64,000 nucleotides of DNA from a virus (lineage: Duplodnaviria > Heunggongvirae > Uroviricota > Caudoviricetes), in the IMG/VR virus record IMGVR_UViG_3300029705_006930, one strand, 5' to 3'. Under the pieces are notes generated by a model that was not told the DNA's origin, did not search any database, and saw nothing but the letters and a program-made list of their open reading frames with translations. The translations under genes were made by a program, and so were the position numbers. Position 1 is the first letter of the stretch, and every line of letters starts with the position of its first letter. Shown piece by piece: positions 48,334-64,000 of this stretch.

Positions 48334-49029
48334 ATGCAGAATTATCATTGCCATACCAGTTATAGTAATTTGTTTTCATTTGACTCTATTGCATCTTATG
48401 AAGATTATGCAAAACGAGCTCAGGAACTTGGGCACAAAGTTATTTCATCTGTCGAACACGGCTGGCAATGTAATTATTATGTACCATATGGCATAGCTCA
48501 AAAATATGGATTGAAATTTGTTTTTGGTACAGAAGCATATTGGGTAAAAGACAGGATAGAAAAAGATAATAAGAATAACCATATTATTATTCTTGCAAAA
48601 AATGAAAACGGCAGACAAGCCATAAATGATATTTTAGCAGAAGCTAATATTACAGGTTACTATTATAAACCACGTTTGGATACAAAACTGATTCTGTCTT
48701 TACCCGCCAATGATGTCTTTATTACAACAGCATGTGTTGGATTTTATGGATATGGTTTTGAAGAAAGTGAAAAATTTATTGTTCAGTTGCATAAGCACTT
48801 TAAAAATAATTTTATGCTTGAAATTCAAAATCATAATACTGACAAGCAAAGAGAATTAAATAACCAAATTAAAAAGTGGTCAAAAAAATACAATATTGAA
48901 ATGATTGTTGGGTTAGATAGTCATTATATATATCCAGAGGATGCTGGTCTTCGTGATGAAGCTCTTAAATCAAAAGGCATTATTTATGAAGATGAATCTG
49001 GTTGGTATTCTAAATGCCGTTTAATTTAG
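48334..49029 (+). CDS. DnaE/PolC-type polymerase PHP-domain fragment
   Basis: YHCHTSYSNLFSFDSIAS PHP signature; RBS AGGAGG. Confidence 0.65.
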   Translation: MQNYHCHTSYSNLFSFDSIASYEDYAKRAQELGHKVISSVEHGWQCNYYVPYGIAQKYGLKFVFGTEAYWVKDRIEKDNKNNHIIILAKNENGRQAINDILAEANITGYYYKPRLDTKLILSLPANDVFITTACVGFYGYGFEESEKFIVQLHKHFKNNFMLEIQNHNTDKQRELNNQIKKWSKKYNIEMIVGLDSHYIYPEDAGLRDEALKSKGIIYEDESGWYSKCRLI

Positions 49030-49277
49030 TAATAAATTAAATAATTACTGGGGAAAATCGGTGAAGTCCTCCAATGATATAGGATAATACCGAGGTAAAC
49101 AATAAAATTGCGTAAGGTTTATTGTCACCGTAGAGCATAGATAGTGAATAAATATAATCTATCCAAGAGTCTCCAGCATCCCACCTAAATATAGAGGATG
49201 AAAATATATGCCGAGCTTACATAATGGAAAAATGTAAGAACTATGGGGTAAAAAACCTATAGGATAACAAAACTGAT
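49030..49277 (+). other. About 250 nt structured spacer splitting the DnaE-like gene (candidate ORF-less group I intron)
   Basis: Hairpins ACAATAAAattgcgtaaggTTTATTGT and CATCCcacctaaatatagaGGATG. No RBS-less continuation checked. Confidence 0.3.
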
Positions 49278-51809
49278 ATGGACTATCCCTCTGACAATGA
49301 ATGCATAAAGCGTTTTTTAGACCAAGGAATTTTTACTGAGACAGAAATTCAACGTGCAATGGATAACACAGATATCTGCTTAACATTTGAGAATTTTTAT
49401 TTTAGTAAAGATATTAAACTACCAACTTTATATCCAGACAAGACTCAAGAGGAAAAGAACAAGATATATTCAAGACTGATTACAAAAAAGTTTAAAGAAT
49501 ATATGAAATATGTTCCTGCTGAAGACTATGACAGATATTATCAAGGTGTTAAAGAAGAAGTTCAGGTATATAAAGATACTGGTATGGTTGACTATCCGCT
49601 AATCAACTATGAAGTTATTAAGCGCGGGATTGAATTGGGCGGGGTAATTACAGATAGTGGACGTGGTTCCGCTGTTGGCTTCTTCACAAACACATTGTGT
49701 GGATTCTCAAAAGTTGACCGTTTTACATCTGCAATTCATCTTTATCCAGAGCGCTTTATGTCAACAAGCCGAATATTAGAGTCCGGCTCCCTACCAGATA
49801 TTGACTTTAACGTAGCTAATACTGAGCCTTTTGAACGAGCACAAAAAGAAATACTTGGAGAAGAACATTCATATCCAATGATTGCATTTGGCACTTTGAA
49901 AAAGAAATCTGCTTTTAAGCTTTATGCAAGAGCAAAAGATGTGCCAGCTGCCATTGCAAATGAAATCACAAAACAGATTGAAAAATATGAAAATGATTTA
50001 AAACATGCCGATGATGATGACAGGCGCGATATAAATATCTATGACTATGTAGATGAACAGTATCATGACCATTTGAGACAGAGTGAATCATATTGGGGTA
50101 TCATTTCTGACCGCAAAAAAGCTCCATCGGCACATCTCTTATATCAAGGCAATATTCGTAAAGAAATTGGGCTCATTAAATGTAAGAGTGAAAGTACCAA
50201 GAAGGAATGCATCACTTGTGTTATTGATGGTGCAGTCGCAGAAGAATATAAATTTTTGAAAAATGACCTGCTCACTGTAAATGTGGTGGATATTATTGAC
50301 CGTGTTTTTAAACGTATTGGCATTGAGCATTTTAATGTAAATACATTGTTGGGACTTATTAAAAATGATAAACCGACTTGGGATATTTATGCTAAAGGTT
50401 TGACTATAGGTGTTAACCAATGTGAAAAAGCCTCAACAACAAAAAAAGCAATGCGATATAAACCACGAAACCCATCTGAGCTCTCGGCATTTATAGCAGG
50501 TATTCGTCCAGGCTTTAAATCAATGTATCCGATTTTTGAAAGTAGACAGCCGTTCTCATATGGAGTTGCTACACTGGATAATCTGCTGATTACCGAAGAA
50601 CTTCCGATTCCCTTTATGATTTTCCAGGAACAGACAATGAAAGTCCTTAACTATGCTGGATTTCCAATGGACGAATGCTATGGTCTTATTAAAGCTATCA
50701 GTAAAAAGAAACCAGAAAAGGTAAAAGCAATCAAAGATGATTTTATTAAAAATTTCTGCAAACAAATTCAAGAAGATAATGGACTTGATTTTGAAATTGC
50801 ACAAAATAACAGTGAAAAAGTATGGACAGTAGTAAATGATAACTCAGGTTATGCATTTAACAGTTCTCATGCATACTGTATGGCGTTGGATAGCTTATAT
50901 TGTGCTTATCTCAAATCTCACTATCCTTATGAATTTTATGAGGTACTTCTCACATTTTATTCCAACAAAGGCAACAAAGATAAAGTTGCTGAACTGAAAA
51001 GAGAAATGCTCCAAGGTTTTGGTATCAGAGAAGGCAAGTTTAAGTTTGGCAATGATAATCGCAGCTTTAAAGCCGACAAAGAAAACGGTGTTATATATTC
51101 ATCACTATTATCATTAAAAAATATGAACCAGAAATGTTCTGAGGACTTATATGCTTTATCACAAAAAAAACAATATACAAACTTTTTTACACTGCTCAAA
51201 GATATTAAACAACTTAAGAGTCTGAAATCTGACCAGCTTAATATTTTGATTAATATTGGATATTTTGATGATTTTGGTACAGTCCCACAGATTCAGACAT
51301 TTGTAAAAGCATATGACGACCTTTATGGACGAGCTCAATTTTCCAAAGATAATCTGGATGCTAATTATGCAGCACTTATTGCTGCTGACAGTACGCAGAC
51401 TGAAAAACAATATCGCAACTTTGATTATGAAAATGCATTGCATAAATTGTGGATGCAAATTCCGCCAATTAAATTAGGTTTGCATCAGAAAATTAAAAAC
51501 GAACTTGAATATTTTGGATACATACAAACAATCATACCAAAGCTCTCAGATGAATATGTAGTCGTAACTGATAAGATTGACAAATATTCGAAACTGACGG
51601 TCACGGTTTATGTATTACAGACTGGAGCAATTCATACTTATCGAATGCGAAGCAGAGTTGCAGAGCAATGCGGAACAATTAATGTGGGCGATATTATTAA
51701 ACTGATGAAGTTTAGCGAAGAAAAGAAATGGACAAAAAATGTCAACGGAGATTGGGTACACACAGATGAAACCGAAACACTCATTAAAAAATATGCACTG
51801 ACAAGATGA
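49278..51809 (+). CDS. DNA polymerase III alpha (DnaE-type) catalytic core
   Basis: Palm motif GRGSAVGFF; 843 aa, which with the 231 aa PHP ORF gives about 1074 aa. Confidence 0.7.
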   Translation: MDYPSDNECIKRFLDQGIFTETEIQRAMDNTDICLTFENFYFSKDIKLPTLYPDKTQEEKNKIYSRLITKKFKEYMKYVPAEDYDRYYQGVKEEVQVYKDTGMVDYPLINYEVIKRGIELGGVITDSGRGSAVGFFTNTLCGFSKVDRFTSAIHLYPERFMSTSRILESGSLPDIDFNVANTEPFERAQKEILGEEHSYPMIAFGTLKKKSAFKLYARAKDVPAAIANEITKQIEKYENDLKHADDDDRRDINIYDYVDEQYHDHLRQSESYWGIISDRKKAPSAHLLYQGNIRKEIGLIKCKSESTKKECITCVIDGAVAEEYKFLKNDLLTVNVVDIIDRVFKRIGIEHFNVNTLLGLIKNDKPTWDIYAKGLTIGVNQCEKASTTKKAMRYKPRNPSELSAFIAGIRPGFKSMYPIFESRQPFSYGVATLDNLLITEELPIPFMIFQEQTMKVLNYAGFPMDECYGLIKAISKKKPEKVKAIKDDFIKNFCKQIQEDNGLDFEIAQNNSEKVWTVVNDNSGYAFNSSHAYCMALDSLYCAYLKSHYPYEFYEVLLTFYSNKGNKDKVAELKREMLQGFGIREGKFKFGNDNRSFKADKENGVIYSSLLSLKNMNQKCSEDLYALSQKKQYTNFFTLLKDIKQLKSLKSDQLNILINIGYFDDFGTVPQIQTFVKAYDDLYGRAQFSKDNLDANYAALIAADSTQTEKQYRNFDYENALHKLWMQIPPIKLGLHQKIKNELEYFGYIQTIIPKLSDEYVVVTDKIDKYSKLTVTVYVLQTGAIHTYRMRSRVAEQCGTINVGDIIKLMKFSEEKKWTKNVNGDWVHTDETETLIKKYALTR

Positions 51810-54479: not shown

Positions 54480-55373
54480 ATGAAGAAAAACGGTTTTGTT
54501 GGTGGTGTTCTTGCCGCAGCAATTATTGTAATTGCGCTTTTAGGGATAATCACTTGTATTGAAAAAATTCCAACAGGGTACGTTGGCGTTGTATATAAAA
54601 TGTCCGGTGGTGTGCAGGACGAAATTCTCACACAGGGCTGGCATATTGTTTCTCCAACCAAAAAGGTTAAGGAATTTACTGTTGGTAATGAGCAGATTGT
54701 TATGACAAAAGACGAACGCGATGGCAGCAAAGGTGATGACAGCTTTGCTGTAGCTACAGCAGATAATGCAAATATTGATATTAGTTTTCAGATGTTATAC
54801 AGATATGATGCTCAAACAGTTGTGAATACATTTAAAGATTATAAAGGCATGAGCGGTGAAGATATTGTTAATAACCGAGTGCGTACATTACTTAAATCTA
54901 AAATTTCCGAAGTTACAACCGATTACACAATGATGGATATTTACTCTGGTGACAGAACGACAATCAATCAGGAAATCACAGAACATCTCAATGAAGAATT
55001 CCATCGTCAGTTTGGTATCAATGTTTTGGATGCTTCTATTGTTGATGTACATCCAAGCGAACAACTGCAGGACACAATTAACAAACGTGTAGATGCAATC
55101 CAGAAAAAACAGGAGGCAGAAGCAAATCAGGAACGTATTAAAGTAGAAAAAGAAACAGAACTTATTCAGGCAGAAGCAGATGCAAAAATTGCCGAAGCAA
55201 AAGCACAGGCAGAAGCACGAGTAATCGAAATTGAAGCACAGGCAGAAGCCGAAGCAAATCGTCTTATTGCACAGAGTATTACCCCAGAACTTATCGCTAT
55301 GAAAGAAGCCGAAGCTCGTCTTGTTCACGGCTGGGTGGAAATCACAGGCTCAGAAGCCGTAGTAGTTAAATAA
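54480..55373 (+). CDS. SPFH/band-7 (prohibitin/HflC-like) membrane protein
   Basis: N-terminal TM helix, SPFH core, A/E/Q-rich coiled-coil tail. Confidence 0.7.
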   Translation: MKKNGFVGGVLAAAIIVIALLGIITCIEKIPTGYVGVVYKMSGGVQDEILTQGWHIVSPTKKVKEFTVGNEQIVMTKDERDGSKGDDSFAVATADNANIDISFQMLYRYDAQTVVNTFKDYKGMSGEDIVNNRVRTLLKSKISEVTTDYTMMDIYSGDRTTINQEITEHLNEEFHRQFGINVLDASIVDVHPSEQLQDTINKRVDAIQKKQEAEANQERIKVEKETELIQAEADAKIAEAKAQAEARVIEIEAQAEAEANRLIAQSITPELIAMKEAEARLVHGWVEITGSEAVVVK

Positions 55374-55426
55374 TAAATTGAATAACAATCTCCGCAGGGG
55401 AAACTCTGTGGAGAACAAGGATAACT

Positions 55427-56749
55427 ATGAGACAAATATTAAATATGAGAGAAACATTAACGCGAGTAAGTTTTTTATTTAAGACTATTGCGAGTACACC
55501 AAGGACAACTGAAAAGAAACGATTGTTGCGTTATATCAACAGCTCAGAACCAGAGAATGTATGTGAAATGTTTCTGTATACTTTACGATTTTTATTGGAT
55601 AACAATGTAACAACAGGTATCGATAAAAAGAAACTCAAAGCTCAAATTAATATGCCTGATATTAATTTTCCAATGAAATGGTCACATATGTTGGAATATA
55701 TCAAAGAAAACAATACAGGAAGGCATGAAGATATTCGCAGAGCACAGCTCTTTATCGAAGATAATCCCGAGAATGCGGAATTTATTGCTGATATTATAAC
55801 AAAATCATATAGGTTAGGACTGACAGCCAAAACAGTAAATGAAGTTTATGAAGATTTTATTCCTGTTTGGTCAGTACAGCAGGCATATCCTTTGGAAAAA
55901 TATCCGCTTAAGGACGGAGAATGGTTTTCTTTATCACAAAAGCTTAATGGGTTCCATGCCTCATATTACAAGGGTAAATTAATAAGCCGACAAGGAAAAG
56001 AAATCAAAGGTTGTAAGCACGTTATTAACGCAATAAACAACTTTAAACTTCAAGATTTCTTTATTGATGGCGAGCTTATCCGGCGTAATGATATTGAACC
56101 TCATCTCTCAGACGAAGAAAATTTTCGACAGACTGTTTCAATTGCGAATTCTGATTCTGACGACAAAACAGACCTGTGTTTTATTTATTATGATATCATT
56201 CCAGCTGATGATTTTGACAAAGGCAAATGTGAAATAACATATCGCCAACGTCTTAATGACATGCATAAATTAAACAGTATAATTCTGCAGACTCCATTTT
56301 ATAAAACGTTTCATATGGTGAAATGGTTTTATCACGGCAATGACCAAAAGAAAATTCAGTTTTGGCTTGATTATGCAAATGAAAATGATATGGAGGGTCT
56401 TATGTTAAATAAGGATACTGTATATCAATGCAAACGTAATTCAGGCATTTTAAAGGTAAAAAGTTGGAAACATTGTGACCTTAGAGTAACGGGCGTTGAA
56501 GAAGGCGATGGCAAATACAAAGGAACCCTTGGAAAACTGATTGTGGACTATAAAGGAAATACTTTGGGATTAAGTGGAATGAGCGATGAGGAACGTTATA
56601 TATTTTGGAATAATCCACAGGACATAGTTGGGAAGATTGTGCTCGTTAAATATAAACAGGAAACAAAAGACAAAACAGGTAAACGTAGTTTGCAGTTCGC
56701 AACCTACCAAGGTGTTAGAACTGATAAAGATGAAGTCAGCTACAATTAA
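55427..56749 (+). CDS. ATP-dependent DNA ligase
   Basis: KLNGFHA (I), FIDGELI (III), EGLMLNK (IV), ILKVKSW (V). Confidence 0.65.
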   Translation: MRQILNMRETLTRVSFLFKTIASTPRTTEKKRLLRYINSSEPENVCEMFLYTLRFLLDNNVTTGIDKKKLKAQINMPDINFPMKWSHMLEYIKENNTGRHEDIRRAQLFIEDNPENAEFIADIITKSYRLGLTAKTVNEVYEDFIPVWSVQQAYPLEKYPLKDGEWFSLSQKLNGFHASYYKGKLISRQGKEIKGCKHVINAINNFKLQDFFIDGELIRRNDIEPHLSDEENFRQTVSIANSDSDDKTDLCFIYYDIIPADDFDKGKCEITYRQRLNDMHKLNSIILQTPFYKTFHMVKWFYHGNDQKKIQFWLDYANENDMEGLMLNKDTVYQCKRNSGILKVKSWKHCDLRVTGVEEGDGKYKGTLGKLIVDYKGNTLGLSGMSDEERYIFWNNPQDIVGKIVLVKYKQETKDKTGKRSLQFATYQGVRTDKDEVSYN

Positions 56750-56765
56750 TAGATGGGGGAATAAA

Positions 56766-58065
56766 ATGAACGTAAAAGATTGGCTTGGAGAAGAAAATCA
56801 GCTCGGCATTGATATTGCTACAAAAAAATATATTAAAAACGAATCCTTTGATGAATTTATCGGAAGAATTTCAAATAATAATCCAGAAATTAAAAGAATT
56901 ATTTTAGAAAAGAAATATCTGCATGGTGGCAGAACACTCAGTAACTACAATACGGGTAATGGTGCATCCACATCCAACTGTTATTCAAGTGGTTACTGCC
57001 CGGATGATACAGCAGGTATTCTGGAGCTAAATAAAAATATAGGTCTTACATATAAAGCACAGGGTGGGCAGGGTTTATCTCTGAGTAAAATCCGTCCAAA
57101 GGGCTGTAAAATCAGCAAAGGTGGATATGAAACTGATGGCATCATTCCATTTATGCAGATGTTTGATACTACAACAGCAAGTATTTCACAGGGCGGTTCA
57201 AGAAAAGGAGCTCTGATGATGTCTCTTGACTGCTGGCATAAAGAGGTTAAAGATTTTATCACAATCAAAACCGATACAAATCTTATTACAAAAGCAAATC
57301 TGTCAGTTGAAATTGACGATGAATTTATGACCTGTGTCAGAAAATATTATGATGAAGGCTTGGTATTTGAAAAACAAGTAAACTTTACTTATGATGGCGG
57401 TGAAACCAGATATATGGTGAAACCTATTGAAGTATATCAGCTGATTTGTAAAACGGCTCATGAATATGCTGAGCCAGGCATTATCTATACTGAGCAGTTT
57501 CGCAACTATAATTTAATGCAGTACGATGATGAATATCAGATTGTAACTGGTAACCCATGTGGAGAACAGCCTTTGCCACAGAATGGGGCGTGCAATCTGG
57601 GCAGTATTAACCTTGCAGAATTTGTAAAACACCCATATTCATCAGAATCAGAGTTTGATTTTGTAGATTTCCGCAATACAGTAGAAATTGCAATCAGAGC
57701 ATTGGATGACGTACTGGATTATGGTGCTGAACTTCATGCTTTGCCAGAACAGAGAGAAATGGCAAAGAATTATCGCAATATAGGTCTTGGCATTATGGGC
57801 CTTGCTTCAATGCTTTTTAAGATGGGCATTAAATATGGCAGTGATGAATCTCTCCATCTTGTAGATACCATTGGCTATACAATGTTTAGAACTGCTTTGG
57901 AGACATCTACTGAGCTCGCAAAAGAAAAAGGAACTTTCCCAAAATATAAAGATGTTGTTTTTGATGCAGAAATTATTAAGGCACATTTTAATGCAGACGA
58001 AATCGCAGAGCTCCGCAAATATGGTCTTCGCAACTGCTCATTGCTTTCAATCGCTCCAAGTGGGT
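56766..58065 (+). CDS. nrdJ: Class II (NrdJ-like) ribonucleotide reductase, exon 1
   Basis: NPCGEQPL...ACNLGSINL catalytic motif; RBS GGGGGA. Exon ends ..SIAPSG + t. Confidence 0.75.
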
Positions 58066-59266
58066 TGACTAACTGGCTCACATAAAACATTTTTAATTGC
58101 TGGAACATCCTTAGAGCTTCATAAACTACAACATAATGATGAAATATACATAAGTGTGAATGTTTGAAAATTATGAAGATTGGATAATCAGCAGCGAAGC
58201 TCTGAATAGGAGAACGTTCAACGACTATCCCTTAATGGGAGTACACTGCAAGTGATTGGCAGTGGAAATAAAATGTACTAATTATTTATAAACTTAGGTA
58301 AAAGTAATAATAGAATTAAAAAATATAACATATGACGACATATATAATTTATATATAACACAACAAAAATCACAGCGACAAGTAGCAAACATACTTCACA
58401 TTGGGCAAACATCGGTTAGAAGGTTGTTACAAAAATATAATATTCCATCTAGGACTTCAGAAGAAAGCAAACAAACTCCAGATTTCATTGCTCGTCAAGC
58501 AGAACTTGCTCATAGATATCAAAATGAGTATAGAAAAATAATTGTCAAACAGTGTAAATGGTGTGGAAAAGATTTCGAAGTAGATGGTGAACATAAAAGA
58601 AAAAAATATTGCTCCCCAGAATGTGTTTCTATGTCTCAAAAATCTAAAACCAAAACACAATTTTGCCAGCGTTGTGGTAAAGAAATAAAAATATCATCTG
58701 GAAGACATTATAAAAGAATCTATTGTGATGAATGTAATGTTGTTGGCAGAAGTGAAAAGCAAATTAATAAGATACAAACTACTTGTGGATATTGTGATGC
58801 AAAAATCGAAGTAATTCCAAGTGTATATAAGGCAAATCGTTTTTGTTATTGCGATATGAATTGCATGGCTAAGCATTACGCAGAAATATATAGCGGGGAA
58901 AATAATCCCTCTTGGAAAGGTGGAAAATCACATCATTACACAGGTGGGTTTTATAATGCTCGGCAAAAGGCAAGAGAAAGAGATAAATATACTTGTCAAA
59001 TATGTGGAATTACGGAAACTGACTTTGGTCAACAAATGAGTGTGCACCATATCAAAAATTATAGATTATTTGAAGATAAGGCTGAAGCAAATAAACTTGA
59101 TAATTTAATATGTCTATGTGAACCTTGTCACCGATTTGTACATTCGAACAATAATAAAGAAGGATTGTTTATAAATAATTAGTAAAGATATAGTCTCAAC
59201 TTATATGAAAATATAAGCAGCCAGAAGATGGCGGCGATGGTGTAGCGAACCATCGCGAAGACATTG
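58066..59266 (+). mobile_element. Group I intron interrupting the RNR gene, carrying an HNH homing endonuclease ORF
   Basis: Exon 1 ends in U and the intron ends in G. Splicing restores SIAPSG-SIGTMLNVTTGCEP. In-frame stop just inside the intron. Confidence 0.65.
58424..59182 (+). CDS. HNH homing endonuclease (intron-encoded)
   Basis: Multiple CxxC zinc knuckles; HNH core VHHIKNY...NLICLCEPCHRFVH. Confidence 0.75.
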   Translation: MLQKYNIPSRTSEESKQTPDFIARQAELAHRYQNEYRKIIVKQCKWCGKDFEVDGEHKRKKYCSPECVSMSQKSKTKTQFCQRCGKEIKISSGRHYKRIYCDECNVVGRSEKQINKIQTTCGYCDAKIEVIPSVYKANRFCYCDMNCMAKHYAEIYSGENNPSWKGGKSHHYTGGFYNARQKARERDKYTCQICGITETDFGQQMSVHHIKNYRLFEDKAEANKLDNLICLCEPCHRFVHSNNNKEGLFINN

Positions 59267-60246
59267 CAATTGGCACAATGCTCAATGTGACAACAGGATG
59301 TGAACCTGCATTTAGATTGTCATATAAACGTAAAACAGAAAGCTTACATAAAGATAAAGAAGTTTATTACGATGTATTTCTTCCGGAAATAGAAGAATTT
59401 AAACGTCTTTACCCAAACAAAGAATTGCCAGAGTACTTTGTATCAAGTGAAAATATTTGCTGGGCAGACCGAGTAAAAATGCAGTCAGTATTGCAGGAAC
59501 ATATTGATACAGCTATTTCATCAACAGTAAATCTGCCAAATTCAGCAACAATTGAAGATGTTGAAGACCTGTATTTGTATGCTTGGGAACAAGGTCTTAA
59601 GGGTATTACAATCTACCGTGATGGCTGTGCAAGAACTGGTATTCTCACAACAGATAAAACTGGTAAAAAAGAATCACCTGAAACATCGGAAAAGATAATA
59701 TCAGCTGAATTGCCAAGAGGCTACATTATGGATGTAAGTGACGACCTTATTGGTTATAAACGTAAACTTAATACAGGTTGTGGTTCAATTCATATGGAAG
59801 TATATTTCGATGAAATATCTGGTGAACCACAAGAAACCTTTGTCAACATTGGCTCTAGCGGCGGCTGTGAACGTAATTATCAACTCATCTCACGCCTTAT
59901 ATCTCTTGCATTAAGAGGTGGTGTTCCAATTGAATCTATCATTGACCAAACAATGAGTATTCGCCCTTGCACAGCTTATATCAACAGAACAAAAGCAAAA
60001 GGGGATACTTCAAAGGGAACTTCTTGCCCGAGCGCCATAGGCTATGCTTTACAAGAATTACAAAAGAAAATTAATGATAGGTGTTTTGGTTGCGAAGAAG
60101 AAATTGCAGAATCAGAATGCAATTGTAATATAGAAGACAAAGCAAGAATAAGTACATATACACCTTGTCCAGAATGTTCATCCCAATTGCAATTTGAAGG
60201 TGGTTGTATTATCTGTAAAAATTGTGGGTGGTCAAAATGCGATTAA
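59267..60246 (+). CDS. nrdJ: Class II RNR, exon 2
   Basis: ..GTMLNVTTGCEPAF; C-terminal Cys-rich tail CPECS...CKNCGWSKCD. Total 759 aa in frame. Confidence 0.75.
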
Positions 60247-60773
60247 AGCAATGTAAAAAATGTAAACAAGAACTACCTACTTCTATGTTCTATAAAAGTT
60301 CTTACACAAAAGATGGATTTAGAGATTATTGTAAAGAATGTTGTAAACAAAACAATAAAAATTATTATGTAAAACATAGAACAGAGATAATTGAAAGAAC
60401 TAAACAGTATGTTGACAACAATAAAGAAAAAATTAAAGAGTATCAGAATCAATATTCTTATGTACATAGAGATGATAGAAAAGAATATCAAAAAATATTA
60501 TTTGATGATAAAAGAGAATTTTTAAATTCTTTAAAATACCCTTGTGTAAAATGTGGAGAGGACAGGCCATGGATAATTGATTTTCATCATATAAATCCTA
60601 AAAATAAATGTTTTACGGTTGGAAATAAATATCGTGGAAATATAGAAGTAATACAAGCAGAAGTTGAAAAATGTATATGCTTATGTAGAAATTGTCATGC
60701 TGAATTTCATTGGATATATGGCGCTGTTCCAAAATATCCTGAATTAGCATTAAATGAATATTTAGCGCAATAA
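60237..60773 (+). CDS. Free-standing HNH endonuclease
   Basis: DFHHINPKNK...CLCRNCHAEFH; overlaps the RNR stop. Confidence 0.7.
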   Translation: MRLKQCKKCKQELPTSMFYKSSYTKDGFRDYCKECCKQNNKNYYVKHRTEIIERTKQYVDNNKEKIKEYQNQYSYVHRDDRKEYQKILFDDKREFLNSLKYPCVKCGEDRPWIIDFHHINPKNKCFTVGNKYRGNIEVIQAEVEKCICLCRNCHAEFHWIYGAVPKYPELALNEYLAQ

Positions 60774-60779
60774 ACAATA

Positions 60780-60806
60780 CAGAGGGCTGGGAACTCCAGC
60801 CCTCCC
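60780..60806. terminator. Hairpin AGAGGGCTGGgaactCCAGCCCTC
   Basis: 9 bp stem; weak T-run. Confidence 0.3.
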
Positions 60807-60819
60807 AAAAGGAGAAATA

Positions 60820-61197
60820 ATGTATATAGTTTTAGTATATATCGGCGTTTTCATTGTGATATGGAGTATTCTTTTCGTCATCTTGAAATTATGTGCTGAT
60901 ATTGATAAGCAATGGCGTATAAGCTATCCAGTCATTAATTTTAATATATTTATGAATGCATATACGTTAGCCTCTGAACAATGGGAACTAGATGAGCGTA
61001 CAGTAACCTTTTGGGATATGAGGTACTACGGAACATTTAGAACTACGTTCAAATTTAATTATTTGGATTATAGAAAATATAAAAAATGGAGAGAAACCTG
61101 TAAAACCGAAGAATGGAACAATAAACAGTATCAGGTTTTAGACCAGATTATTCAAAAATATAAGGAGAATAATAATGCATCAGCATATAAAGGTTAA
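60820..61197 (+). CDS. Membrane protein
   Basis: RBS AAAAGGAG; N-terminal TM helix. Confidence 0.5.
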
Positions 61198-61609
61198 ATA
61201 CTTTACAGATAAAATTGATAATCTTGCAAGCATTAAAAAAGGTAATTGGATTGATTTGCGAGCAGCTGAGGATGTAGAACTGAAAGCTGGCGAATTTAAG
61301 CTTATTCCACTTGGTATTGCAATGCAGCTTCCAGAGGGCTACGAAGCACATATTGTCCCTCGCAGTTCTACATTTAAAAACTTTGGCATAATTCAGACAA
61401 ACCATTGTGGTATTATCGACAACTCATACTGCGGAGACAATGACCAGTGGCTTTTCCCTGCATATGCGTTGCGTGACACTGTAATTAAAACAAATGACCG
61501 TATTTGTCAGTTTCGTATAATGGAAATTCAGCCAGAAATTACTTTTGAAGAAATATCAGTACTGAGCGGCCCAAACCGTGGTGGATTCGGTTCAACAGGA
61601 ATTAATTAA
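61175..61609 (+). CDS. dut: dUTP diphosphatase
   Basis: [23 protein letters not shown] trimeric dUTPase motifs. Confidence 0.85.
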
Positions 61610-61620
61610 GGAGAAAGAAT

Positions 61621-62118
61621 ATGAGTGTTGTAGCCGCAAAAGTTTATCCCGATAAGGTTGTTATCGCAGCTGACTCTATTATGATAAAAGGCTGGTCAAA
61701 ACGCAATACAAATGTGACAAAATTAGCAGAAATCAATGAAATGATTATTGGTGGTGTGGGCACCGCACAGGAAGACAGTTTGATGTGGCACTATATGCGC
61801 ACCCATAAACCACTATCCGCGACCGAAAAAGATATCCTTGCCTTTATTATTGAATTCTCTCAGTGGAAAAATACTATGATAGGGAACAGCAATATTGAAA
61901 ATGAATATTTGCTAATTTTCCAAGGACATTTATTCCAGATTGATAATATGTTTGTAAATGAAATAACAGACTATTCAGCAATTGGTGCAGGTGAAGACTA
62001 TGCGTTGGCAGCACTTTACCTTGGGCATACCCCTAAAGAGGCCACAAAAGTTGCCTGTGAATTGTCTTGTTATGTTTGTGAACCTATTATTGAATATGAA
62101 ATGAAAAAGGAAAAATAA
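61621..62118 (+). CDS. HslV/proteasome-beta-like Ntn-hydrolase peptidase
   Basis: Ser2 after Met; VVIAADSIMIKG ... GGVGTAQE ... SAIGAGEDYALAAL parallels HslV TT..AGDGQ..GFAGGTADA..IGSGGPYA. Confidence 0.45.
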   Translation: MSVVAAKVYPDKVVIAADSIMIKGWSKRNTNVTKLAEINEMIIGGVGTAQEDSLMWHYMRTHKPLSATEKDILAFIIEFSQWKNTMIGNSNIENEYLLIFQGHLFQIDNMFVNEITDYSAIGAGEDYALAALYLGHTPKEATKVACELSCYVCEPIIEYEMKKEK

Positions 62119-62419: not shown

Positions 62420-64000
62420 ATGAAAAGAGTTGCATGTTTATATCGTGTTTCAACAAAAGGACAAGTTGATAAAGATGACATTCCTATGCAGCGTAAAGAA
62501 TGCAGTGAATTTATTAAAAAACAGGGATGGCAATTAGTCAATGAATATTATGAAAAAGGTGTCAGTGGCTATAAAAAATCAGCAGACCAACGTGATGTAT
62601 TGCAAACAATCAAGAATGATGCTTTAAATAATCAGTTTGACATTCTGCTTGTCTATATGTTTGACAGATTAGGACGACGCGAAGATGAAACTCCATTTAT
62701 TCTTGAATGGTTTACAAAACAAGGTATAGAAATGTGGAGTGTTAAAGAAGGCCAACAGTCCTTTTCACAACATATTGATAAATTACTTAACTACATACGT
62801 TTCTGGCAAGCCAGCGGTGAAAGTCATAAGACTTCTATGCGTGTTGATAGTAGCCATAGGCAAATGGCTGAAGAAGGCAAATTTAGAGGCGGCGATGCAC
62901 CATATGGATATATGCTTGTAAAAACAGGTGTATTCAATAAAAAGAAAAAAGAATTATTAAAATTAGTCATCAATACCATTGAGGCCCCTATTGTGCAGCT
63001 TATATATAAGTTAGCTTTGGAGGGATATGGTCAAACAAAAATAGCCAAATATTTAAATGAGCACGGCATAAAAACTCGAAACAATAAAATGTGGAATAGT
63101 GGTACAATTGGTTATATCCTAAAAAATCCAATTTATAAAGGTTATCCTGCATATAGAAAGAAAACAGGACAAGGAGAGGGAGTTCATAATTTGCCAAGTT
63201 CAGAATGGATATTATCTTCGGCACAGCAAATTGAGCTTGTTATAATTTCAGAGAATGATTGGGATAGAGTGCAGGAATTACGTACACAACATCATAATTC
63301 TCCTAATCATAACACAATCACAAATTCACCATTATTATTAGTTGGGTTGACTTACTGTGGATGCTGTAAAAGTCCATTGACTACCACTTATTCATATAAG
63401 TACAATAAAGATAAAACAAAGGTATATCAGCGACCAAAATATCGTTGCTCTGGTAAGGCAAATGCAAAAGCACTCTGTGATGGACAAACCGTTTATAGCG
63501 CAGAGAAATATGAAAAAGCTGTTTTAAATCAGATTGATATTTATTTAAATAAAATCAAAAATACACCACAATCTCAACAAGATACAACAGCTAATGATTT
63601 TCAAAAAAATATTAAATCTCTCGAGCATAAATTAGCAAAAATCAATAATATGATAGAAATATTATCTGATGAAGTTGGTAATGCCTTGATAGGAGAAAGT
63701 CGATTTACACCAGAAGTTTTGGCAGAACAAATTAACAAAAAACAACAAGATAAAATTTTAATACAAAATGAACTTGACAAAATAAAACAAGAGGCAGATA
63801 ATTATAACCATGAACAAATCAATACACAGCAATTAAACCAAGTTATTCCAATCTGGAAAGAAAGGTTTGACGGATTTTCAACTGAAAAGAAAAAACGTTT
63901 ATTGCGTATCTTGATTTCACGCATTGAATTTAATAGAGATACAATTATTATAGATTTTAATACAACTATTCAATGCTTTTTAGATGCTATCACTGCATAA
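62420..64000 (+). CDS. Large serine recombinase (integrase)
   Basis: Resolvase N-terminal domain YRVSTKGQ...LLVYMFDRLGRR; recombinase and zinc-ribbon/coiled-coil C-terminal domains. TAA at the window end. Confidence 0.85.
   Translation: MKRVACLYRVSTKGQVDKDDIPMQRKECSEFIKKQGWQLVNEYYEKGVSGYKKSADQRDVLQTIKNDALNNQFDILLVYMFDRLGRREDETPFILEWFTKQGIEMWSVKEGQQSFSQHIDKLLNYIRFWQASGESHKTSMRVDSSHRQMAEEGKFRGGDAPYGYMLVKTGVFNKKKKELLKLVINTIEAPIVQLIYKLALEGYGQTKIAKYLNEHGIKTRNNKMWNSGTIGYILKNPIYKGYPAYRKKTGQGEGVHNLPSSEWILSSAQQIELVIISENDWDRVQELRTQHHNSPNHNTITNSPLLLVGLTYCGCCKSPLTTTYSYKYNKDKTKVYQRPKYRCSGKANAKALCDGQTVYSAEKYEKAVLNQIDIYLNKIKNTPQSQQDTTANDFQKNIKSLEHKLAKINNMIEILSDEVGNALIGESRFTPEVLAEQINKKQQDKILIQNELDKIKQEADNYNHEQINTQQLNQVIPIWKERFDGFSTEKKKRLLRILISRIEFNRDTIIIDFNTTIQCFLDAITA

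What the first reader, a model, noticed from the sequence alone, without database searches (positions are those of the whole stretch)
56766..60246. Class II RNR gene split by a 1.2 kb group I intron with an HNH homing endonuclease
Exon 1 ends SIAPSG+U and exon 2 resumes at ..caattggcacaATG. Joining recreates SIAPSG-S-IGTMLNVTTGCEP, the conserved NrdJ segment, in frame (759 aa). The intron ends in G and encodes a 252 aa HNH protein. A second free-standing HNH gene overlaps the RNR stop.
Basis: partly seen in the sequence, partly recalled or inferred. Interest (0 to 1): 0.5.

Follow-up and report, generated by a model that had tools for sequence, protein, structure and literature searches.

The report
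Self-splicing intron in phage nrdJ gene
A phage gene for a B12-type ribonucleotide reductase is interrupted by a 1.2 kb self-splicing group I intron carrying a homing-endonuclease gene, which is a real but textbook kind of selfish element in an unusual host gene.

Summary
Exon 1 (56766-58065) and exon 2 (59267-60246) join in frame to a 759 aa protein. That protein passes the NCBIfam NrdJ equivalog cut-off in one continuous stretch. An intronless relative (L001, 80% identical) reads GGGT|CAAT exactly where the predicted splice falls.

The 1201 nt insert (58066-59266) has the expected group I features:
- a P1 helix with a U.G pair at the 5' splice site, and a terminal G;
- a core 70-82% identical to hundreds of phage group I introns, including the HNH-carrying second intron of phage Twort nrdE;
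- 28 of 48 core pairs with compensatory changes across seven introns.

The HNH gene sits in the loop of a 17-18 bp P8 stem. The same intron and endonuclease occupy exactly this site in five other diverged phage nrdJ genes. A free-standing HNH gene overlaps the nrdJ stop by 10 nt.

One point is unresolved. The endonuclease's conserved N-terminal helix-turn-helix segment has no ATG, GTG or TTG start.

Splicing itself was not observed. This is a new member of a well-known kind, so interest is low to moderate. In passing, a second, ORF-less group I intron (49007-49275) was found in the DnaE-like polymerase gene; Rfam does not detect it.

The parts
56766..58065 (+). nrdJ exon 1: 433 codons plus the first base (T) of the Ser434 codon. 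ATG at 56766, preceded by GGGGGA.
   Evidence: The gene call in independent assemblies starts at the same ATG. dN/dS against intronless L001 is 0.07.
58060..58081 (+). P1 helix. The exon end GUGGGU (58060-65) pairs with the internal guide GCUCAC (58076-81). U58065.G58076 is the wobble pair at the 5' splice site. The loop is 58066-58075.
   Evidence: 6 of 6 pairs. The four comparison introns with defined exon ends have an equivalent P1 (5-6 of 6 pairs) and a T before the splice site.
58066..59266 (+). Group I intron, 1201 nt, of the phage IA2-like type with no P2. It ends in G59266.
   Evidence: It is identical in 8 independent metagenome assemblies apart from one SNP.
58083..58085 (+). In-frame TAA, six codons into the intron. 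It ends translation of unspliced RNA.
58087..58276 (+). The 5' half of the catalytic core:
- P3 5' strand: 58087-93, pairing with 58270-76 (7 Watson-Crick pairs). An alternative register is 58089-94 with 58264-69.
- P4: 58098-103 with 58188-193.
- P5: 58108-110 with 58182-184.
- P5a: 58117-124 with 58171-178.
- P5b: 58131-137 with 58150-157.
- P6/P6a: 58195-96 with 58215-16, and 58200-03 with 58209-12.
- P7 5' strand: 58223-27.
- P7.1: 58228-31 with 58237-40.
- P7.2: 58244-47 with 58251-54.
   Evidence: Rfam match to model positions 50-157. RNAalifold and pair counts on 7 introns. Coordinates. An SNP at 58203, T>C in L014, turns a U.G pair into C-G in P6a.
58277..59183 (+). P8: a 17 bp perfect stem (58277-93 with 59167-83; 18 bp if 58276 and 59184 are counted). 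It closes the 873 nt loop that holds the endonuclease gene.
58298..59182 (+). Intron-encoded HNH endonuclease reading frame, open for 294 codons after the TAG at 58295. Its parts are an N-terminal helix-turn-helix, three CxxC...CxxC modules and a C-terminal HNH domain. The first canonical start is TTG 58424 (252 aa), inside HTH helix 3. The last codons lie in the P8 3' strand.
59185..59266 (+). The 3' half of the core:
- J8/7, then the P7 3' strand UAGUC at 59191-95.
- P9: 59200-06 with 59211-17.
- P9.1: 59220-23 with 59229-32.
- P9.2: 59234-41 with 59249-56.
- Terminal G at 59266.
   Evidence: Rfam match to model positions 219-251..
59267..60246 (+). nrdJ exon 2. It begins CA, completing the Ser434 codon, and then reads IGTMLNVTTGCEP... 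It includes the TSCPD domain and a C-terminal Cys cluster. The stop is TAA at 60244-46. A weak P10 forms between 59267-71 and 58071-75 (4 of 5 pairs).
   Evidence: dN/dS against L001 is 0.06.
60237..60773 (+). Free-standing HNH endonuclease gene (178 aa from the ATG at 60237; a TTG lies at 60222). It overlaps the end of nrdJ by 10 nt.
   Evidence: PHROG phrog_2255 at E = 2.3e-26. Pfam HNH_2 is below its cut-off.

Best explanation
The window carries a phage gene for an adenosylcobalamin-type (class II) ribonucleotide reductase, NrdJ. It is interrupted by a mobile group I intron after the first base of the Ser codon in the conserved motif SIAPSG-S-IGT.

Inferred mechanism:
1. The pre-mRNA folds so that the last six exon bases pair with an internal guide sequence (P1, with U58065.G58076).
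2. A free guanosine bound in the P7 pocket attacks after U58065.
3. The terminal G59266 then takes the same pocket.
4. The freed exon 1 end attacks after it, joining the exons to GGG-UCA-AUU (Gly-Ser-Ile) and giving a 759 aa enzyme.
5. Unspliced RNA is translated only to a stop six codons into the intron.

The intron's P8 loop holds a gene for an HNH endonuclease with a helix-turn-helix and three zinc-type modules. By analogy with other phage intron HNH enzymes, it cuts or nicks intronless nrdJ alleles of co-infecting phages near the insertion site. Repair then copies the intron in (homing).

Shown here: the anatomy, the homology, the covariation, the restored reading frame and the presence/absence pattern. 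Inferred: splicing chemistry, endonuclease activity and target.
For: 1. The reading frame and protein are restored.
- The spliced product scores 462 bits on TIGR02504 against a cut-off of 400, in one stretch across the junction.
- It aligns continuously to T. maritima NrdJ 1xje, including ...lsiapsgsigtmlnvttgcep against LTIAPTGSISNIADTSSGLEP.

2. An intronless allele exists. Viral contig L001 has an uninterrupted nrdJ that is 80% identical, with GCTCCAAGTGGGT|CAATCGGCACAATG. That differs by one base from the predicted ligated exons.

3. Both exons are equally constrained, with dN/dS of 0.07 and 0.06.

4. The RNA is a group I intron.
- RF00028 matches lie on both sides of the ORF.
- 484 phage records match the core, among them Twort nrdE-I2 with I-TwoI.
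- RNAalifold independently recovers P4, P5, P5a, P5b, P6, P7, P7.1 and P7.2.
- 94% of cells are paired against 34-43% when partners are slid. 28 of 48 pairs have double changes. 0 of 500 shuffles reach the observed values.
- P1 with a U.G pair, P3 and P10 were checked in five introns.

5. The element looks mobile. The same intron plus a homologous HNH gene sits at exactly this nucleotide position in five other nrdJ genes that are only 37-53% identical in protein to this one: L032/33, L034, L037, L038 and L039. L001, BS-TP1 and LIBA6276 lack it.

6. The ORF encodes an HNH domain, by Pfam and by PHROGs. It has 94 homologs.
Against: - No transcript evidence. The exact spliced protein is absent from a collection of 15 billion proteins, so no cDNA-like or intronless copy of this allele was found.
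- Rfam reports nothing at its gathering score, and nothing when the whole window is searched. Each partial hit is below 50 bits.
- The endonuclease has no ATG, GTG or TTG upstream of its conserved helix-turn-helix. The codon aligned to a homolog's Met is TTA. It may therefore be poorly expressed, truncated or defunct.
- P10 is weak, at 4 of 5 pairs.
Confidence: 0.9

Rival explanations
1. The intron splices, but its own endonuclease is defunct or crippled because its start codon is lost. The intron then persists passively, or is moved in trans by gene conversion started by the neighbouring free-standing HNH endonuclease (60237-60773). This would parallel T4, where MobE mobilises the nrdB intron that carries the defunct I-TevIII.
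For: - There is no canonical start between the stop at 58295 and TTG 58424, which lies inside HTH helix 3.
- Eight assemblies agree on this sequence, so it is not a sequencing error.
- Other copies have lesions in the same region: L037 and L038 also lack a canonical in-frame start before the HTH, and L032 has its only one (GTG) 15 codons into the open frame, after the start of the conserved segment; in all three an upstream ATG is out of frame.
- A free-standing HNH gene abuts nrdJ.
- The T4 precedent is described in PMC2790892.
Against: - The rest of the 294-codon frame is intact, and every invariant Cys, His and Asn of the family is kept.
- An AGGT lies 8 nt before ATA codons at 58307 and 58310, which could support weak non-canonical initiation.
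- Nothing shows where the downstream HNH enzyme cuts.
Confidence: 0.3
2. A fractured gene without RNA splicing. An endonuclease gene inserted into nrdJ, and the two halves are translated separately and assemble, as reported for nrdA of Aeromonas phage Aeh1 split by mobE.
For: - Split phage RNR genes that work as two polypeptides are known (PMC3653736).
- Exon 1 has its own stop at 58083.
- An ATG lies four codons into exon 2, at 59278.
Against: - About 330 nt of conserved, covarying group I core flank the ORF.
- The boundaries obey the rules of U before the 5' splice site and a terminal G, with a matching guide sequence.
- No Shine-Dalgarno-like sequence precedes 59278.
- The break falls inside a codon.
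Confidence: 0.03
3. The insert is an intein or a group II intron rather than a group I intron.
For: Inteins are common in RNR genes.
Against: - The exon 1 frame hits a stop six codons into the insert, and the HNH ORF is in another frame, so there is no in-frame intein.
- No reverse transcriptase is present.
- Rfam finds no group II match even at E <= 10.
Confidence: 0.01

Closest known systems
Staphylococcus phage Twort nrdE intron 2 with I-TwoI (GenBank AF485080; cited as self-splicing, Landthaler et al. 2002, in PMC3653736)
   Same: - The catalytic core is about 82% identical over P3-P7.2.
- It has the same P7.1/P7.2 architecture and the same P9.2 loop, GUAGCGA here against GUAACGA in Twort.
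- It carries an HNH endonuclease.
- It interrupts the RNR large-subunit gene in the same conserved motif, LAP|TQSIS in Twort against IAPSG|SIG here.
   Different: - The host gene is class Ib nrdE, not class II nrdJ.
- The insertion point is 7 nt upstream of the equivalent position.
- The ORF is in P6 rather than P8.
- Only the RNA cores were compared; the two proteins were never compared with each other. The Twort intron has a P2; this one has none.
Phage T4 nrdB intron with I-TevIII, plus free-standing mobE (PMC2790892)
   Same: - A group I intron in a phage RNR gene encodes an HNH enzyme.
- A free-standing HNH gene lies directly beside the RNR gene.
- The intron enzyme may be N-terminally compromised.
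   Different: - The subunit and the insertion site differ.
- I-TevIII in T4 is truncated, whereas here the frame is intact and only the start codon is missing.
- Trans-mobilisation is not shown here.
Group I introns of phage nucleotide-metabolism and replication genes in general (T4 td and nrdD, SPO1 and relatives' DNA polymerase with I-HmuI, SPbeta bnrdE/F, Bacillus phage AR9/PBS1)
   Same: They belong to the same RNA family by blastn and are inserted in highly conserved coding sequence. The ORF's 3' end runs into core structure, as noted for intron endonuclease genes in PMC2677866.
   Different: The 2013 survey of split phage RNR genes listed no group I intron in nrdJ. Its two split nrdJ cases had a 12 nt gap and overlapping ORFs. 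From memory only, and not checked here, a group I intron in a cyanobacterial class II RNR gene has been described.
Intron-rich jumbo gut phages (Jug phages, PMC12880540)
   Same: These are large phage genomes with many group I introns and stand-alone HNH genes that interrupt RNR, polymerase and terminase genes. Splicing was confirmed by metatranscriptomes for about half of the predictions. The present sequence occurs on contigs of up to 326 kb.
   Different: Those phages carry nrdD, not nrdJ. Membership of this window in that clade was not tested.

Membership tests
Group I intron | The 5' splice site follows a U that forms a U.G wobble pair with an internal guide sequence (P1). | tested here: met
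   GUGGGU (58060-65) pairs with GCUCAC (58076-81) at 6 of 6 positions, with U58065.G58076.
Group I intron | The last intron nucleotide is G (omega-G). | tested here: met
   G59266. It is the only junction that recreates GGGT|CAAT as seen in intronless L001.
Group I intron | Match to the curated covariance model (Rfam RF00028) at its gathering score. | tested here: not met
   There is no hit at gathering. Two partial hits of 33.2 and 23.8 bits (gathering score 50) are split by the 873 nt P8 loop and appear only when 1.5 kb is searched. The model cannot bridge the ORF, so this is a limit of the test rather than evidence against membership.
Group I intron | A conserved core of paired elements P3-P9, including the P7 helix, supported by covariation. 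| tested here: met
   Alignment of 7 phage introns: 94% of cells paired, 28 of 48 pairs with compensatory changes, 0 of 500 shuffles as high, and slid controls at 34-43%. P3 was checked by script. P7 (GACUA with UAGUC) is invariant.
Group I intron, subgroup IA2-like | Extra hairpins P7.1 and P7.2 between P7 and the 3' strand of P3. This criterion is recalled from the Michel-Westhof classification and was not checked against a paper here. | tested here: met
   P7.1 is 58228-31 with 58237-40. P7.2 is 58244-47 with 58251-54. Both covary in the alignment.
Group I intron | Guanosine-dependent self-splicing with exon ligation. | not testable with these tools
   There is no transcript data. The exact spliced protein is not in the protein collection.
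Class II ribonucleotide reductase (NrdJ) | Score above the curated cut-off of the NrdJ equivalog model, continuous across the junction. | tested here: met
   TIGR02504 at 462 bits against 399.95, covering residues 35-556. The class I NrdA/E model scores 249 against 341, and the RTPR model 35 against 340.
Class II ribonucleotide reductase (NrdJ) | Conserved active-site loop NPCGE, and a C-terminal TSCPD/Cys-rich tail. | tested here: met
   NPCGEQPLP aligns to NPCGEIGLS of T. maritima NrdJ. PF12637 TSCPD scores 68 bits.
Class II ribonucleotide reductase (NrdJ) | Adenosylcobalamin dependence, with no small subunit needed. | not tested
   This is biochemical. The rest of the genome was not searched for an nrdB/F gene.
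Intron-encoded HNH homing endonuclease | An HNH (beta-beta-alpha-metal) nuclease domain. | tested here: met
   PF01844 at 27.4 bits against 21.4. PHROG HNH families at E = 3e-29. The invariant residues HH...N...H/CxxC are kept. The AF2 model's C-terminal domain matches the Cap5 HNH nuclease locally, with probability 0.99.
Intron-encoded HNH homing endonuclease | Located in a peripheral loop of the intron, with the intron present or absent at one identical site among homologous genes. | tested here: met
   The ORF is in the P8 loop. Six intron-containing alleles share the site, and three alleles lack the intron.
Intron-encoded HNH homing endonuclease | A translatable gene with a recognisable start. 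| tested here: inconclusive
   No ATG, GTG or TTG precedes the conserved HTH. TTG 58424 would delete most of it. ATA codons at 58307 and 58310 follow an AGGT.
Intron-encoded HNH homing endonuclease | Site-specific cleavage of the intronless allele. | not testable with these tools
   The predicted target is GCTCCAAGTGGGTCAATCGGCACAATG of L001.
Free-standing HNH endonuclease (60237-60773) | An HNH domain in a gene that lies outside any intron or intein. | tested here: met
   phrog_2255 at E = 2.3e-26. The sequence contains CVKCG...DFHHINP...CRNCHAEFH. Pfam HNH_2 reaches only 15.5 bits against a cut-off of 21. No intron-like sequence was found around it by nhmmer.

The most novel reading that the evidence does not exclude
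The intron belongs to an undescribed, nrdJ-specific family. Its homing endonuclease has the layout HTH, then three zinc modules, then HNH. The N-terminal DNA-binding segment repeatedly lacks a canonical start: 4 of 7 copies examined, three of them with an out-of-frame upstream ATG.

That pattern could reflect deliberate low-level expression through non-AUG initiation or a +1 shift rather than decay. Alternatively, intron mobility could depend in trans on the adjacent free-standing HNH gene, as with T4 mobE and I-TevIII.
Probability: 0.12. Interest if true: 0.45.

Novelty: new member of a known kind. Interest (0 to 1): 0.25.

Why it matters
For annotation, the two RNR fragments and the "HNH protein" between them are one functional nrdJ gene plus a selfish element. 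Standard gene callers split the gene, and Rfam at default thresholds misses the intron.

For biology, it adds class II RNR to the phage RNR genes invaded by group I introns. It defines a precise, recurrent homing site, after nt 1 of the Ser codon in IAPxG-S-I. That site lies 7 nt from the equivalent of the Twort nrdE site, so related introns target the same conserved phosphate-binding loop in two RNR classes.

None of this changes what is understood about group I introns or homing.

Tried and rejected
Searches that found nothing or were uninformative:
- Rfam at gathering score on the whole window gave no hits.
- Rfam at E <= 0.1 on the whole window also gave none, because the filters are stricter on long input. 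Only the 1.5 kb search shows the group I matches.
- Megablast of 56000-61000 against phage genomes found no match, so no close sequenced relative exists.
- The exact spliced 759 aa protein is not in the 15-billion-protein collection. No cDNA-like evidence was found.
- A profile of the HNH family against PDB sequences gave nothing below E = 0.04.
- Foldseek of the AF2 model against the PDB gave no full-length match. Only the HNH and HTH domains match locally.
- Rfam on five loci carrying the polymerase-type intron gave nothing, even next to an annotated Intron_gpI.
- A search for further copies of either intron family in the window found none, by blastn and by nhmmer --max.

Readings considered and rejected:
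- Intein, because of stops in frame.
- Group II intron, because there is no reverse transcriptase and no RNA match.
- Sequencing error as the cause of the missing start codon, because eight assemblies agree.

Not resolvable: downstream synteny with L001 is absent. It therefore cannot be said whether the free-standing HNH gene is itself an insertion.
Full report
**Observation**

The ORF map and raw sequence show an ORF that starts upstream of 56766 and ends at 58085. Its last in-frame residues are ...LLSIAPSG followed by LTNWLT and a stop. A 252 aa ORF lies at 58424-59182, and another ORF at 59278-60246. Joining 56766-58065 to 59267-60246 gives 2280 nt, or 759 codons, reading ...SLLSIAPSG-S-IGTMLNVTTGCEP... 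The insert is 1201 nt, is preceded by T58065 and ends in G59266.

**What the interrupted gene is**

- The joined protein matches Pfam Ribonuc_red_lgC at E = 5e-105 and TSCPD at E = 9e-19.
- It scores 462 bits on the NCBIfam equivalog TIGR02504 NrdJ_Z, cut-off 399.95. The match is a single stretch, residues 35-556, and so runs through the junction at residue 434. The class I and RTPR models fall far below their cut-offs.
- It aligns without a gap to the solved Thermotoga maritima NrdJ (1xje) across the junction. There, lsiapsgsigtmlnvttgcep faces LTIAPTGSISNIADTSSGLEP, and the active-site NPCGE loop is present.

**Comparative proof of the junction**

A scan of viral contigs found L001 (IMGVR_UViG_3300029705_005472), which has an uninterrupted nrdJ 80% identical in protein. 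Its DNA at the site reads GCTCCAAGTGGGT CAATCGGCACAATG. The predicted ligated exons read GCTCCAAGTGGGT|CAATTGGCACAATG. No other choice of boundaries reproduces this sequence while also keeping a T before the 5' site and a G at the intron's end. Against L001, exon 1 and exon 2 are equally constrained, with dN/dS of about 0.07 and 0.06, although dS is saturated. That is what a gene expressed as one protein should show.

**What the insert is**

Rfam finds nothing at its gathering scores, nor when the whole window is searched at E <= 0.1. A search of 57900-59400 alone gives two RF00028 (group I intron) matches:
- 58089-58269 to model positions 50-157, at 33.2 bits and E = 2.6e-6;
- 59183-59215 to model positions 219-251, at 23.8 bits and E = 1.6e-3.

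These two matches are the two halves of the core, separated by the ORF.

A sensitive blastn of the intron against phage genomes matches 484 records over the same two segments at 70-82% identity. The hits include introns of Bacillus phages AR9, PBS1 and BpSp, Enterococcus, Streptococcus, Aeromonas and crAss-like phages. They also include the second intron of Staphylococcus phage Twort nrdE, which carries the HNH endonuclease I-TwoI. A survey read here cites that intron as self-splicing.

I aligned seven of these introns with their ORFs removed. RNAalifold recovered P4, P5, P5a, P5b, P6, P7, P7.1 and P7.2 on its own, and 26 of its 45 pairs showed compensatory double changes. Counting with three P9 pairs added gave:
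- 94.0% of cells paired, against 34-43% when the 3' partners are slid by 1-3 columns;
- 28 of 48 pairs with changes on both sides;
- 0 of 500 shuffles reaching any observed measure.

A script confirmed three further points in five of these introns: a 5-6 bp P1 with T before the splice site, a 6-7 bp P3, and the invariant P7 pair GACUA/UAGUC.

In the window the elements are as follows:

| Element | Coordinates | Note |
|---|---|---|
| P1 | 58060-65 with 58076-81 | U58065.G58076 wobble |
| P3 | 58087-93 with 58270-76 | 7 Watson-Crick pairs |
| P4 | 58098-103 with 58188-193 | |
| P7 | 58223-27 with 59191-95 | |
| P7.1 and P7.2 | between P7 and the P3 3' strand | IA-type hallmark, recalled from memory |
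| P8 | 58277-93 with 59167-83 | perfect 17 bp stem closing the ORF-bearing loop |
| P9 | 59200-06 with 59211-17 | |
| P9.1 | 59220-23 with 59229-32 | |
| P9.2 | 59234-41 with 59249-56 | |
| P10 | 59267-71 with 58071-75 | weak, 4 of 5 pairs |

One natural SNP, 58203 T>C in assembly L014, changes a U.G pair of P6a to C-G.

**The endonuclease**

The 252 aa ORF matches Pfam HNH above its cut-off and PHROG HNH-endonuclease families. Its frame is in fact open from 58298, directly after a TAG that follows the P8 5' strand.

A database search with the 294-residue frame returned 94 homologs. Most are 285-305 aa and cover 94-99% of the query, including the N-terminal part. The alignment shows the full layout: an N-terminal helix-turn-helix, three CxxC...CxxC modules and a C-terminal HNH domain, with all family-invariant residues kept in the window's copy. 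An AlphaFold model has a mean pLDDT of 82. It folds residues 12-46 into three helices at pLDDT 90-95, so TTG 58424, which is residue 43, lies inside helix 3.

No solved structure resembles the whole protein. Only the HNH domain (the Cap5 nuclease, probability 0.99) and the HTH domain match locally.

The window has no ATG, GTG or TTG between 58298 and 58424. The codon aligned with the Met of the closest full-length homolog is TTA 58316. Eight independent assemblies carry the identical sequence, so this is not a sequencing error. Candidate weak starts are ATA 58307 and 58310, which lie 8 and 11 nt after an AGGT.

**Distribution**

Looking up where homologs of the endonuclease are encoded gave five further, mutually different phage contexts: L032/33, L034, L037, L038 and L039. 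In each, the gene lies between two RNR fragments. In all five the intron sits after the first base (T) of the Ser codon that follows AP(S/T/N)G. Those NrdJ proteins are only 37-53% identical to the window's. L001, Bacteroides phage BS-TP1 and Clostridioides phage LIBA6276 have no intron there.

This is the presence/absence pattern expected of a homing element with a defined target. The homologous position of the Twort nrdE-I2 site lies 7 nt upstream, in the same motif (LAP|TQSIS). The Twort ORF is in P6 rather than P8.

Among the seven endonuclease copies examined, L034 and L031 have a clean Shine-Dalgarno sequence plus ATG, and L039 has an in-frame TTG. The window, L037 and L038 have no canonical in-frame start before the HTH. 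L032 has only a GTG, 15 codons into the open frame and after the conserved segment has begun. L032, L037 and L038 each have an upstream ATG in the -1 frame. I cannot tell decay from regulated non-canonical expression.

**The second HNH gene**

ORF 60237-60773 (an alternative TTG lies at 60222) overlaps the nrdJ stop by 10 nt. It matches PHROG HNH-endonuclease families at E = 2e-26, while Pfam HNH_2 is below its cut-off. The arrangement recalls T4, where free-standing MobE beside nrdB mobilises the nrdB intron with its defunct I-TevIII. Whether the same happens here is speculation.

**Mechanism**

This section rests on established knowledge of group I introns and is inferred for this case.
1. 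P1 presents U58065.
2. Exogenous guanosine bound at P7 cleaves after it.
3. G59266 replaces the guanosine.
4. Exon 1 attacks the 3' site, and the exons are ligated to give Gly-Ser-Ile.
5. Ribosomes on unspliced RNA stop at TAA 58083.
6. The endonuclease, if it is made, cuts intronless nrdJ in a co-infecting genome, and recombinational repair copies the intron in.

**Comparison with the literature**

RNR genes are the phage genes most often interrupted by group I introns: nrdA, nrdB, nrdD, nrdE and nrdF. The 2013 survey listed two split nrdJ genes, and neither split was by an intron. Large gut phages with around 18 group I introns per genome, many stand-alone HNH genes and metatranscriptome-confirmed splicing have since been described. 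The present case is therefore a new member of a very familiar class, in a host gene (nrdJ) where I found no published description in the searchable library. Absence from that library is weak evidence.

**Verdict**

- Confidence that this is a splicing-competent group I intron restoring nrdJ is about 0.9.
- Confidence that its own endonuclease is currently active is lower, roughly 0.6.
- Novelty: new member of a known kind. Interest: 0.25.

Noticed in passing
window 48334-51809 (intron 49007-49275): A second intron. The DnaE-like DNA polymerase III alpha gene is split into a PHP-domain ORF (48334-49029) and a polymerase ORF (49278-51809).
- In 9 of 9 related viral loci the two parts are contiguous. 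L009, for example, reads GGATGGTATATGGATTATCC (GWYMDYP), where the window reads GGTTGGT|269 nt|ATATGGACTATCC.
- The 269 nt insert has no ORF.
- Its boundary is ambiguous by 2 nt. One choice gives a U before the 5' site, a terminal G, and a 7 bp P1 hairpin with a U.G pair.
- Homologs interrupt tail, capsid, terminase and polymerase genes of Clostridioides, Staphylococcus, crAss-like and cyanobacterial phages, one of them with a LAGLIDADG ORF.
- A six-sequence alignment supports the topology P2, P3, P4, P5, P6, P7 (pseudoknot), P7.1, P8, P9 and P9.1. 94% of cells are paired, 43 of 66 pairs are compensatory, and 0 of 500 shuffles reach the observed values.
- Rfam RF00028 finds nothing here even at E <= 10.
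   Followed up: yes
window 58295-58424; L032 3422-3501; L037 2353-2501; L038 2380-2501: The conserved HTH-coding N-terminus of the intron endonuclease lacks a canonical in-frame start in 4 of 7 copies. Three of them have a short ATG-initiated ORF in the -1 frame that overlaps it, and two of those have an A8 run just after the ATG. This could be decay of the homing gene, or non-canonical initiation or a +1 shift.
   Followed up: partly
L034 2305-2760; L038 393-1196; L010 (Clostridioides phage pCD1602_4) 1278-1948: Relatives' nrdJ genes carry further insertions at other sites.
- L034 has an insert at the active-site NPC|GE motif. Its 3' part, read by eye in the raw sequence, carries the conserved motifs of the polymerase-type intron seen at window 49007-49275; no search or alignment was run on it.
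- L038 has a LAGLIDADG ORF between two earlier RNR fragments.
- pCD1602_4 has a 671 nt insert at NPCA|EEPLP.
   Followed up: partly
L020 (Clostridium phage phiCD211) 301-578 and 605-870: A copy of the polymerase-type intron lies directly upstream of a separately annotated Intron_gpI feature, just after a tail-protein CDS. These may be tandem or twin introns.
   Followed up: no
window 58203: This is the only polymorphism across eight assemblies of the intron. T>C in L014 converts the U.G pair 58203-58209 of P6a to C-G.
   Followed up: yes
window 62420-64000 (runs off the end): A large serine recombinase gene (Resolvase, Recombinase and Zn_ribbon_recom domains, as annotated on identical contig L015) lies 1.6 kb downstream of the nrdJ cluster. 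It hints at an integrative or temperate lifestyle. The same sequence occurs on contigs of up to 326 kb.
   Followed up: no
window 54480-62118: The neighbourhood is a nucleotide-metabolism and replication cluster: a Band_7 protein, an ATP-dependent DNA ligase (55427-56749), nrdJ, the HNH gene and a dUTPase (61175-61609).
   Followed up: partly
whole window (method note): Rfam's group I model reported the nrdJ intron only when about 1.5 kb was searched. It did not report it on the full 64 kb at either threshold, and it never reported the polymerase intron. Default RNA-family scans will under-count introns in this kind of genome.
   Followed up: yes
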